The position numbers were made by a program, and so were the translations under genes. The notes under the pieces were generated by a model. That model saw only the letters and a list, made by a program, of their open reading frames with translations, was not told the DNA's origin and searched no databases. Shown here piece after piece: positions 59,250 through 59,425 of a stretch of 64,000 nt of DNA. The DNA is taken from assembly GCA_045634865.1 (NCBI GenBank), contig JAZRBB010000002.1:197162-261161 (forward strand), written 5' to 3'. Each line of letters begins with the position of its first letter. Positions within the stretch are counted from its first letter, which is position 1. The stretch comes from Candidatus Enterousia sp. Its GTDB lineage: Bacteria > Pseudomonadota > Alphaproteobacteria > Rs-D84.

Positions 59250-59425
59250 GGTTCCCCGCCCATGGCGGGGGGGACCGCTTGCGGCGAAGTCGCGCCGTAG
59301 CCTTTGGCGTAGGCGGATGGGGAGGGTATTCCGGTGTGTTTGTAATTATGAACGTCTGGAACAATAATTTATTTGACCCCTCTCCGTCTTGCTATCGCAA
59401 TCCACCCCTCCGGTGGAAAGGAATA
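59250..59425. repeat. GC-rich palindromic element, copy B (homologous to 33165-33345)
   Basis: The same conserved blocks as copy A. Carries an extra GC-rich insertion near its 5' end. Confidence 0.7.

What the first reader, a model, noticed from the sequence alone, without database searches (positions are those of the whole stretch)
59250..59425. Copy B of the GC-rich palindromic element (with insertion), immediately after the 857-aa repeat-protein gene
Same element as at 33165-33345. Here it begins 20 nt after the stop codon of the 56657-59230 gene. It contains additional hairpins (gcctttggc, ccgcttgcgg). It may act as a 3' UTR stabiliser or terminator module for highly expressed surface-protein genes.
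Basis: seen in the sequence. Interest (0 to 1): 0.6.

Follow-up and report, generated by a model that had tools for sequence, protein, structure and literature searches.

The report
Ownerless palindromic repeat linked to DUF559 nucleases
The GC-rich hairpin cluster just after the 857-aa gene is an ORF-less copy of a dispersed palindromic repeat of small-genome gut alphaproteobacteria, not a terminator, and it matters because in relatives the same repeat arms flank small DUF559 (Vsr-like) endonuclease genes.

Summary
Copy B (core 59251-59424) and copy A (33167-33321) are the same element, far beyond chance, and B carries a 33-nt nested insertion.

B probably lies in the 3' UTR of the 857-aa gene. 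It has no U-tract, and a conserved bidirectional terminator lies about 180 nt further on. Copy A is antisense to both of its neighbours.

The element belongs to a mosaic repeat family: 28 hits in 21 fetched loci from Rs-D84 / Ca. Enterousia-type gut MAGs.
- A close relative lacks copy A at the orthologous site.
- Other copies show nested insertions and tandem arrays.
- The copies show no RNA covariation.

Each arm has three parts: a terminal hairpin (RTT-CCCCNCC-loop-GGNGGGG), a small variable hairpin, and a GGGGNGGG block. The two arms are inverted around a roughly 50-nt core.

In 7 of 7 independent loci, arms of this design (the same sequences in four loci, sister subfamilies in three) flank an intact 115-aa DUF559 nuclease gene (dN/dS 0.05-0.20). 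B's arms match those units almost base for base.

My best reading is a non-coding (MITE/REPIN-like) partner of a nuclease-associated selfish repeat system. That the nuclease mobilises the repeat is inferred, not shown.

A parallel exists in E. coli, where the DUF559 gene ycjD sits next to BoxC repeats.

The parts
59239..59250 (+). 5' linker remnant GGGCTGATACAG, the family motif ..CTAGRCTGATACnn that precedes the terminal hairpin
   Evidence: The same motif precedes the 5' hairpin in L016, L017, L023 and L024 and in the DUF559 units of L017 and L026.
59251..59270 (+). 5' terminal hairpin: GTT + CCCCGCC (59254-59260), loop CAT, GGCGGGG (59264-59270)
   Evidence: It has the same sequence as the 5' end of the DUF559 units in L017 and L026, 40 of 43 matches including the linker.
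59271..59284 (+). Second small hairpin GGGACCGCTTGCGG (ACCGC-TT-GCGG[T])
   Evidence: Identical in L016, L018 and L038 and in the DUF559 units of L017 and L026.
59285..59317 (+). Nested 33-nt insertion CGAAGTCGCGCCGTAGCCTTTGGCGTAGGCGGA, a copy of the AAGTCTCGRCGTAGC..ACGGA mini-module
   Evidence: Absent from L018 and L038 at this position. It aligns with the module inserted in the hairpin loops of L017 (4397-4572) and L023, and with the ends of the inverted repeats around a GIY-YIG gene in L045.
59319..59326 (+). Inner G block GGGGAGGG, the third block of the 5' arm
   Evidence: 34 of 48 terminal hairpins have such a block within 70 nt on the inward side, against 2 of 48 on the outward side.
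59327..59375 (+). Non-coding core TATTCCGGTGT - small hairpin GTTTGTAATTATGAAC - GTCTGGAACAATAATTTATTTG. It stands where the nuclease ORF lies in the coding units
   Evidence: It is the best conserved part among the ORF-less copies. Part of it resembles the region upstream of the DUF559 start codon.
59376..59386 (+). Inner C block ACCCCTCTCCG, pairing partner of the inner G block
   Evidence: The same block follows the DUF559 stop codon directly in L016.
59389..59400 (+). Small variable hairpin TTGC-TATC-GCAA
   Evidence: Copy A has TTGATG..CATCAA at the same place and L024 has TTGTGAC..GTCACAA.
59402..59424 (+). 3' terminal hairpin, decayed: CCA CCCCTCC GGT GGAAAGG AAT, with two G>A changes relative to GGAGGGG
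   Evidence: L024 and the L016 DUF559 unit have CCACCCCTCCGGTGGAGGGGAAT.
59425..59441 (+). 3' linker ATAAATCGGTCTATTAT, the inverted counterpart of the 5' linker; the outer limit is uncertain
   Evidence: Similar to the 3' flank of L017 1522-1665 (TAAAATCGATCAATAAT) and to the reverse complement of the L016 linker CTAGACCGAT.
59603..59646 (.). Context: conserved bidirectional intrinsic terminator AAAAAAAATCCCC..GGGGATTTTTT, the likely true transcript end for the 857-aa gene
   Evidence: Conserved in L038, L039 and L041 whether or not the element is present. Fold energy -17.2 kcal/mol.
56657..59230 (+). Context: 857-aa repeat-protein ORF whose 3' UTR holds copy B
   Evidence: A homologue in L020 also has a copy of the element about 35 nt after its stop codon.
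33167..33321 (+). Copy A, with both terminal hairpins intact (TAAGTTCCCCACC..GGCGGGGAACTTA)
   Evidence: It is absent from the orthologous site in L001 and L002.
33322..33395 (+). Linker (TTACTCTCATTCTTG) followed by a partial module of a sister subfamily (..GCTACGTCGATACTCCCCCAAAAGTGAGAAT)
28449..28495 (+). Solo arm of the sister subfamily: AATTCTCCCTTTGGAGGGAGTACCGGCAAAGCCGGGGAGGGAGG
   Evidence: 84-89% identical to the arms that flank the DUF559 genes in L034 and L043.

Best explanation
Copy B is an ORF-less copy, about 175-200 bp long, of a GC-rich imperfect palindrome. The palindrome belongs to a dispersed, mosaic repeat family found in gut alphaproteobacteria of the Rs-D84 / Candidatus Enterousia type, which have AT-rich genomes reported to be under about 1 Mb. 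Each arm has three parts: a terminal hairpin (RTT-CCCCNCC-loop-GGNGGGG), a small variable hairpin, and a G block (GGGGNGGG). The two arms are inverted around a core of about 50 nt. In relatives, arms of this design enclose a 115-aa DUF559 (Vsr-like PD-(D/E)XK) endonuclease gene. Copy B is therefore the non-coding counterpart (MITE/REPIN-like) of a nuclease-associated selfish repeat system. Shown here: family membership, dispersal to unrelated sites, presence/absence at an orthologous site, nested insertion, tandem arrays of arm modules, shared arms with the nuclease units, and purifying selection on the nuclease. Inferred: the DUF559 protein recognises or cuts the folded arms and so drives copying, amplification and inversion, and the repeats act as recombination hot spots next to variable genes. 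In this window B sits between the stop codon of the 857-aa gene and the real terminator. It is probably carried on the mRNA as a passenger. Its stable hairpins may slow 3'-to-5' decay as REP elements do, but it does not itself terminate transcription.
For: Family and dispersal: 28 nhmmer hits (E <= 1e-8) in 21 fetched loci, a few of them redundant, from the MAGs UBA1218, UBA1185, Ca. Enterousia merdequi and gut metagenomes. At least 9 exact 21-mer core matches lie on 8 contigs of the single MAG UBA1218.
Insertion polymorphism: copy A is absent upstream of hisS in a relative whose HisS is 89% identical. At B's locus, L038 has an unrelated ORF plus an element, and L041 has neither.
Mosaic and nested structure: B's 33-nt insertion, insertions within hairpin loops, tandem and abutting copies, and 2-5 tandem arm modules at one site across samples.
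Link to DUF559: 7 of 7 independent DUF559 loci have the gene between GC-rich hairpin arms of this design. L012, L016, L017 and L026 carry B's own arm sequences, and L033, L043 and L045 carry sister-subfamily arms. B's 5' arm matches the L017 and L026 units at 40 of 43 positions. B's 3' arm matches the L016 unit starting at its stop codon.
Nuclease properties: the ORFs are intact with dN/dS 0.05-0.20, and protein clades follow arm types. There are 977 close homologues, mostly on contigs under 3 kb, as expected of repeats that break assemblies.
Not an RNA gene: no Rfam family and no covariation (1 of 28 pairs; covariation term +0.74).
Not a terminator.
Against: No transposition or homing event is observed directly, and no target-site duplication could be defined. 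DUF559 is not a known transposase. dS of about 1 between DUF559 copies means they are old, so recent mobility is not shown. No DUF559 gene lies in this 64-kb window, and the rest of the host genome could not be read. Copies are somewhat more often sense to the gene upstream of them (about 10 of 14). The sense strand folds better as RNA in 14 of 19 copies, by a mean of 3.2 kcal/mol, so some RNA-level role is not excluded. All comparison sequences are metagenome assemblies, in which repeat arrays can be mis-assembled.
Confidence: 0.7

Rival explanations
1. One reading: a dedicated 3' UTR module that terminates transcription or stabilises the mRNA of surface-protein genes, kept by selection for that role.
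For: B starts 20 nt after the stop codon. L038 has a copy 14 nt after an unrelated ORF at the same locus. L020 and L021 have copies within about 60 nt of a stop codon. The arrangement leader-ORF-element recurs in three loci. The sense strand folds somewhat better as RNA.
Against: No U-tract follows any hairpin, and a conserved canonical terminator lies downstream. Copy A and the L023 copy are antisense to both neighbours, and other copies lie between divergent genes. Neighbouring genes are of mixed function. There are no compensatory changes. The same arms enclose nuclease genes. The architecturally similar E. coli BoxC/PIT repeats showed no promoter or terminator activity (PMC4666352).
Confidence: 0.12
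2. A passive structure-prone repeat (hairpin, cruciform or intrastrand triplex, like BoxC) that spreads and rearranges only through host recombination and replication slippage. On this view the DUF559 genes are merely frequent neighbours, or cargo trapped between repeats.
For: The arms have the C-G-G three-block layout. The copies lie next to variable genes, as BoxC repeats do in E. coli (PMC4666352). dS of about 1 between DUF559 copies argues against recent bursts. A DUF559 unit is inverted between the same flanks in different samples, which ordinary recombination between inverted repeats can do.
Against: In 7 of 7 DUF559 loci the gene sits exactly between inverted arms, with the inner C block at or within about 40 nt of the stop codon. 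Nuclease clades track arm types. The same neighbourhood holds for ycjD and BoxC in E. coli, and my rough estimate of the chance of that is about 0.002.
Confidence: 0.15
3. An independently transcribed small structured RNA gene.
For: It is a GC-rich island in a 38% GC genome with a strong fold (z = -3.9 for B and -4.9 for A). A weak promoter-like site lies just upstream of copy A.
Against: No Rfam match. No covariation in 11 diverged copies, whereas a nearby leader shows 13 covarying pairs in only 4 sequences. Modules are swapped, truncated and nested. The promoter-like site at copy A overlaps the conserved hisS promoter on the other strand.
Confidence: 0.03

Closest known systems
REP / REPIN elements and their RAYT transposases (proteobacteria)
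   Same: Short GC-rich extragenic hairpins with an asymmetric conserved flank. They occur as inverted doublets and mosaic clusters, often just after stop codons. One conserved, purifying-selected small nuclease-type gene is itself flanked by the repeats in inverted orientation, and protein clades match repeat types.
   Different: The associated protein is a Vsr-like PD-(D/E)XK (DUF559) nuclease, not a Y1 HUH transposase. There is no GTAG head. The arms are three-block modules of 45-60 nt. At least two diverged DUF559 units occur in one MAG.
BoxC / PIT / TMECO intrastrand-triplex repeats of E. coli (PMC4666352)
   Same: Three-block layout of C block, loop, G block, loop, G block. They are intergenic and dispersed, with no strict orientation, and lie next to locally variable regions. 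In E. coli the only DUF559 gene (ycjD) has a canonical BoxC 168 nt after its stop codon and a degenerate one across the stop codon.
   Different: The published consensus CCCTCNCCC-N3-6-GGGNGAGGG-N3-GGGNGAGGG does not match the window. The second loop here is 9-30 nt or more and usually holds a small hairpin, instead of 3 nt. The modules here come as inverted pairs around a core or an ORF.
MITEs (for example Correia, RUP, ERIC/IRU)
   Same: Size of 150-200 bp, no ORF, long terminal inverted repeats shared with a longer coding element, multi-copy, and presence/absence polymorphism.
   Different: No target-site duplication was found, and the coding partner is only about 490 bp and carries no recognised transposase.
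Rickettsia palindromic elements (RPE)
   Same: Palindromic repeats of 100-150 bp that proliferate in reduced alphaproteobacterial genomes.
   Different: RPEs are typically found in-frame inside genes and have no known associated enzyme. Sequence relatedness could not be tested with the tools available.
GC clusters and double-hairpin elements of fungal mitochondrial genomes (for example PMC4478555)
   Same: GC-rich palindromic mobile clusters in an AT-rich, reduced genome of alphaproteobacterial ancestry. They are intergenic and nested, and co-reside with small free-standing endonuclease genes.
   Different: This is an analogy only. No sequence similarity was examined.

Membership tests
Intrinsic (Rho-independent) terminator | GC-rich stem-loop followed directly by a U-rich tract | tested here: not met
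   The 5' hairpin is followed by GGGACC, and the decayed 3' hairpin by ATAAAT. The terminator scan finds no site in 59233-59447. The conserved terminator is at 59603-59646.
REP/REPIN-RAYT | Short palindromic unit with a conserved GTAG-type head | tested here: not met
   The units are RTT + CCCCNCC-loop-GGNGGGG, with no GTAG.
REP/REPIN-RAYT | Associated Y1 (IS200/IS605-like) RAYT gene flanked by the repeats | tested here: not met
   The flanked gene is DUF559 (PF04480) in 7 of 7 loci. No Y1_Tnp hit was found among the ORFs scanned. Whole genomes were not searched.
REP/REPIN-RAYT | Extragenic, dispersed, and occurring as inverted pairs or mosaic clusters | tested here: met
MITE | Small, non-coding, with terminal inverted repeats | tested here: met
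   Copy A has TAAGTTCCCCRCC..GGCGGGGAACTTA. B has the same ends with a decayed 3' hairpin.
MITE | Target-site duplication | tested here: inconclusive
   I found no consistent direct repeat by eye in the flanks of 17 copies. The true outer ends are uncertain because conserved linkers extend beyond the hairpins.
MITE | Shares its ends with an autonomous element that encodes a transposase | tested here: inconclusive
   The ends are shared with DUF559 units of about 490 bp, but DUF559 has no demonstrated transposase activity.
BoxC / PIT / TMECO | Consensus CCCTCNCCC-N3-6-GGGNGAGGG-N3-GGGNGAGGG | tested here: not met
   0 matches in the window and in all alphaproteobacterial loci. The only match is next to E. 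coli ycjD.
BoxC / PIT / TMECO | Three consecutive blocks (pyrimidine block, complementary purine block, second purine block) | tested here: met
   34 of 48 terminal hairpins have a GGGGNGG block within 70 nt on the inward side, against 2 of 48 on the outward side. The second loop is longer than in BoxC.
BoxC / PIT / TMECO | Forms an intrastrand triplex | not testable with these tools
   This needs CD or NMR spectroscopy, or chemical probing of arm oligonucleotides.
Integron attC site | RYYYAAC ... GTTRRRY boundary boxes and a neighbouring IntI integrase | tested here: not met
   The ends are GTTCCCC ... GGGGAAC, in the wrong order and composition. No integrase was found among the ORFs scanned.
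Rfam RNA families | Match to any of the 4227 covariance models | tested here: not met
   Only tRNAs reach the gathering score. Within the element, only a CRISPR-DR10 chance match appears (E = 3).
Rickettsia palindromic elements | Sequence similarity to the RPE-1..8 consensus sequences | not testable with these tools
   No RPE reference sequences are available in the collections.

The most novel reading that the evidence does not exclude
DUF559 (Vsr-like) nucleases may be the cognate enzymes of three-block GC-rich palindromic repeats. This would be a REP/RAYT-like partnership built on a PD-(D/E)XK fold. It would span the roughly 490-bp nuclease units and their ORF-less derivatives in Rs-D84 gut alphaproteobacteria and also the long-unexplained BoxC repeats next to ycjD in E. 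coli. The nuclease would recognise the folded arm (hairpin, G·T-containing stem or triplex) and trigger copying, amplification and local gene turnover. The 490-bp unit would then be among the smallest self-contained selfish DNA elements known in bacteria.
Probability: 0.3. Interest if true: 0.8.

Novelty: new variant of a known kind. Interest (0 to 1): 0.58.

Why it matters
Taken alone, copy B is an ordinary interspersed palindromic repeat, not a regulatory invention. Its family context adds three things.

1. It documents an actively mosaic selfish-repeat population in gut alphaproteobacteria whose genomes are reported to be under 1 Mb, where such elements are not expected to be tolerated.

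2. It ties that population to a protein family of unknown function. DUF559 is widespread, and another study found it statistically enriched among targets of predicted programmed inversions (PMC9881135).

3. It suggests a testable candidate for what generates the E. coli BoxC/PIT repeats. These have been known since the 1990s, have no assigned function, and are associated with locally unstable regions.

The element copies also mark a locus where unrelated ORFs are exchanged between a conserved 5' leader and the repeat. That bears on how these reduced genomes vary their large unknown proteins.

Tried and rejected
- Rfam, at gathering scores over the whole window and at E-value thresholds over the locus, found nothing for the element.
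- Exact-sequence look-ups of three window proteins or their identical database hit were not on record, so the host contig could not be fetched.
- My first genome-wide pattern was too strict and gave 0 hits, because the 3' halves of family members differ (GGTATTCYGGTG..CCCCTCYCCGTC).
- Seven of the 13 metagenome hits to the 20-mer lie in contigs of 66-76% GC. They share only the 20-mer, so I treated them as chance matches.
- The viral contig scan gave 0 hits.
- RNA-level selection is not supported. RNAalifold on 11 copies gave no covariation. The strand asymmetry in folding energy is modest (14 of 19) and may be inherited rather than selected.
- I looked for target-site duplications by eye in 17 flank pairs and found no consistent pattern.
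- The idea that the 857-aa ORF and the 426-aa ORF of L038 are orthologues that carry the element along was rejected, because the proteins are unrelated.
- The attC-like cassette reading was rejected on the boundary motifs and the absence of an integrase.
- A first, generic hairpin-plus-mirror-block scan was too noisy (77 of 219 against 27 control). I replaced it with a motif-specific count.
- Pfam and NCBIfam gave nothing for the 857-aa protein or for the two ORFs next to copy A.
- Papers mentioning DUF559 (25), ycjD (17) and Enterousia (16) turned up in the literature searches. I saw no description of these repeats or of a DUF559-repeat link in the titles, abstracts and the passages I read.

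Full report
**1. The observation**

The window is about 38% GC. The stretch 59231-59340 is one of only four GC-rich islands in it (at least 62% GC over 60 nt), and another island is copy A.

GTTCCCCRCCCATGGCGGGG occurs at 33167 and 59251, and in inverted form (3 mismatches) at 33299-33318. GGGTATTCYGGTGTRTTYGTAAT and ACCCCTCYCCGTCTTG occur only in the same two places. Shuffled sequence gives 0 to 0.16 matches. The 73-nt cores are 81% identical, BLAST E = 1e-10.

The ORF 56657-59230 ends with TAA at 59228-59230 and the terminal hairpin motif starts at 59251.

One refinement: the conserved family linker GGGCTGATACAG already starts at 59239, and a matching inverted linker runs to about 59441. The element therefore nearly abuts the stop codon.

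**2. Anatomy**

Reading left to right (compared with 17 relatives):
- linker, 59239-59250
- terminal hairpin GTT-CCCCGCC-CAT-GGCGGGG, 59251-59270
- second small hairpin GGGACCGCTTGCGG, 59271-59284
- a 33-nt insertion, 59285-59317
- G block GGGGAGGG, 59319-59326
- a core of about 50 nt with an apical hairpin, 59327-59375
- C block ACCCCTCTCCG, 59376-59386
- small hairpin TTGCTATCGCAA, 59389-59400
- decayed terminal hairpin CCCCTCC-GGT-GGAAAGG-AAT, ending at 59424
- linker, to about 59441

The element is a long imperfect palindrome with a defined polarity. A profile built from the copies scores 108 bits on the forward strand of B and 12.5 bits on the reverse.

**3. Host**

HisS and RNase III homologues place the window in a large clade of uncultured alphaproteobacterial MAGs.

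DNA pattern scans found the element in 'Alphaproteobacteria bacterium UBA1218' (9 exact core matches on 8 contigs), UBA1185 and Candidatus Enterousia merdequi. They also found it in low-GC contigs of two JGI metagenomes.

Enterousia belongs to the order Rs-D84. These are gut bacteria of farm animals whose genomes are mostly under 1 Mb (PMC12306168; taxonomy). The source contig itself could not be retrieved.

**4. A dispersed, mosaic family**

A profile search gives 28 non-overlapping hits (E <= 1e-8) in 21 fetched loci, a few of them redundant.

Members share the 5' arm and the first half of the core but carry at least three different 3' halves. They also have different second hairpins and terminal hairpins of three sequence types: CCCCGCC, CCCCTCC and CTCCTCC.

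Copies abut each other through a conserved linker, lie in tandem (L013), or carry insertions inside a hairpin loop (L017 4397-4572, L023).

B's 33-nt insertion is absent from L018 and L038 at the same position. It aligns with that loop insertion and with the ends of the inverted repeats around a GIY-YIG gene in L045.

The window also holds a solo arm of a sister subfamily at 28449-28495 and a partial module next to copy A.

**5. Presence and absence**

Upstream of hisS, a relative with 89% identical HisS has a 228-bp spacer without the element. The hisS promoter region next to it aligns base for base with the window.

At B's own locus the flanking genes are conserved: comM, lepB, rnc and secG on one side, and the 83-, 167-/252- and 346-aa ORFs on the other. 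Three states are seen:
- The window has a leader, the 857-aa ORF, element B and the terminator.
- L038 and L039 have the same leader, an unrelated 426-aa ORF, an element copy 14 nt after its stop codon, and the same terminator.
- L041 and L042 go straight from secG to the terminator.

So the element accompanies a replaceable ORF, and the terminator is independent of it.

**6. Not a terminator, and not demonstrably an RNA element**

No hairpin of B is followed by a U-run, and the terminator scan finds nothing in it. The conserved bidirectional terminator at 59603-59646 folds at -17.2 kcal/mol.

RNAalifold on 11 diverged copies gives a covariation term of +0.74, with 1 of 28 pairs showing a double change. 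For contrast, a leader in the same window gives 13 of 54 pairs in only 4 sequences.

The sense strand folds better as RNA in 14 of 19 copies, by a mean of 3.2 kcal/mol, with more G·U pairs. That is weak evidence, and shared ancestry could explain it.

Orientation is not fixed. About 10 of 14 informative copies are sense to the gene upstream of them. Among copies lying between two co-directional genes the split is 5 sense to 2 antisense. Copy A and the L023 copy are antisense to both neighbours. Neighbouring genes include hisS, lpxD, comEC, rplI, a glycosyltransferase gene and a PIF1-like helicase gene, as well as large unknown proteins.

**7. The link to DUF559 nucleases**

Three small ORFs next to element copies turned out to be DUF559 (PF04480, E = 4e-27 to 4e-29). 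When aligned, each sits between inverted arms of the family. The order is linker, terminal hairpin, second hairpin, GGGGAGGG, about 50 nt of AT-rich sequence, a 115-codon ORF, ACCCTCCCCG, a small hairpin, terminal hairpin and linker. The whole unit is about 490 bp.

Four further independent loci, fetched through protein homologues, show the same design. L026 carries B's own arm sequences. L033, L043 and L045 carry sister-subfamily arms, and tandem arrays of 2-5 arm modules differ between samples at one site. That makes 7 of 7 loci.

B's 5' linker and arm match the L017 and L026 units at 40 of 43 positions. B's 3' arm matches the L016 unit from its stop codon onward.

The nuclease ORFs are intact, carry the E-x-D-G-x-x-H-D motif, and have dN/dS of 0.05-0.20 with dS near 1. 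Their clades follow arm types.

The search returned 977 close homologues, most on contigs under 3 kb, which is typical of repeats that break assemblies. The closest solved structure is 3HRL, deposited as an endonuclease-like protein. The family is classified with Vsr and a homing endonuclease (PMC3424549).

One unit is inverted between the same flanking genes in different samples. This fits a report that DUF559 genes are enriched about 14-fold among targets of predicted programmed inversions (PMC9881135).

No DUF559 gene lies in this window.

**8. A parallel in E. coli (a lead only)**

E. coli K-12 has a DUF559 gene, ycjD. It has a degenerate GC-rich palindrome across its stop codon, a duplicated copy of its last 45 or so nt, and then a perfect match to the published BoxC/TMECO consensus 168 nt downstream on the same strand. 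The 231-nt stretch has a median of 16 places per E. coli genome.

BoxC (also called PIT or TMECO) has 23 copies in K-12. It has no promoter or terminator activity, shows no orientation bias, and is associated with locally variable regions (PMC4666352).

The arms here share BoxC's three-block C-G-G layout: 34 of 48 terminal hairpins have the third block on the inward side, against 2 of 48 on the outward side. They do not share its sequence.

With 23 copies in 4.6 Mb, I estimate the chance of one lying within 200 nt of a given gene at about 0.002.

**9. Explanation and its limits**

Shown:
- B is an ORF-less member of a dispersed, polymorphic, mosaic palindromic repeat family.
- Its arms are those that enclose conserved DUF559 nuclease genes.
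- It lies upstream of the real terminator.

Inferred:
- The nuclease acts on the folded arms and drives copying, amplification or inversion.
- The repeats promote local gene replacement.
- B rides on the 857-aa mRNA and may incidentally protect it from 3' exonucleases, as REP elements do. This last point rests on established knowledge of REP, not on a test here.

No mobility event, target duplication or enzyme activity has been observed, and all comparison data are metagenome assemblies.

**10. Verdict**

The element is a new variant of a known kind, a REP/MITE/BoxC-like palindromic repeat with an unexpected nuclease partner. I found no description of the family or of a DUF559-repeat link in the searchable literature.

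Noticed in passing
window 56429-56658 (+); also L038 9132-9408, L018 3558-3779, L009 337-138 (-): A conserved structured 5' leader of about 190 nt ends in a terminator hairpin (AACCGCC..GGCGGTTTTTT). It precedes the 857-aa ORF, the unrelated 426-aa ORF at the same locus in L038, and a homologue of that ORF at another locus in L018. RNAalifold on 4 sequences gives 13 of 54 pairs with compensatory changes (covariation term -4.12). No Rfam family matches. It is a candidate new riboswitch or attenuator.
   Followed up: partly
L046 (E. coli K-12 NC_000913.3 1351040-1351830), locus coordinates 4041-4830: The DUF559 gene ycjD has a degenerate BoxC across its stop codon, a duplicated copy of its own last 45 or so nt, and a perfect BoxC/TMECO consensus 168 nt downstream. 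The stretch recurs a median of 16 times per E. coli genome. I found no published link between ycjD and BoxC.
   Followed up: partly
L045 2180-2940 (Ca. Enterousia MAG JBKSNC010000005.1): A 103-aa GIY-YIG nuclease gene is flanked by its own inverted repeats of about 60 nt (GAGCGACCGCGACCGCGAGAATTCATCCGTCTACGC..GCCGAGACTTTG). The ends of these repeats contain the same mini-module as B's 33-nt insertion. This may be a second nuclease-plus-palindrome family in the same genomes.
   Followed up: partly
L026 versus L027 and L028, around 2800-3500: One DUF559 unit lies in opposite orientations between the same two convergent large ORFs in different samples. Its near-perfect inverted repeats, over 135 bp long, run into the 3' ends of those ORFs, so inversion changes their C-termini (893/209 aa against 933/169 aa).
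   Followed up: partly
window 33430-33695 and 34674-34939 (- strand ORFs 33431-34525 and 34675-36729): The two unknown ORFs next to copy A share an 85% identical 266-nt 3' end. The relative L001 has a single different 468-aa ORF there. This is another variable gene pair next to a copy of the element.
   Followed up: no
window 59447-59500: TATAAAAAATTTTTT occurs twice, 28 nt apart, in a window-specific stretch of about 170 nt between element B and the terminator. L038 has no counterpart of this stretch.
   Followed up: no
window 51729-52712 (-) and 40598-40674: There is an ankyrin-repeat protein with 99-nt repeats, and a related repeat unit about 11 kb away. Relatives also carry several ankyrin genes, which is unusual for free-living gut bacteria and hints at interaction with a host or a protist.
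   Followed up: no
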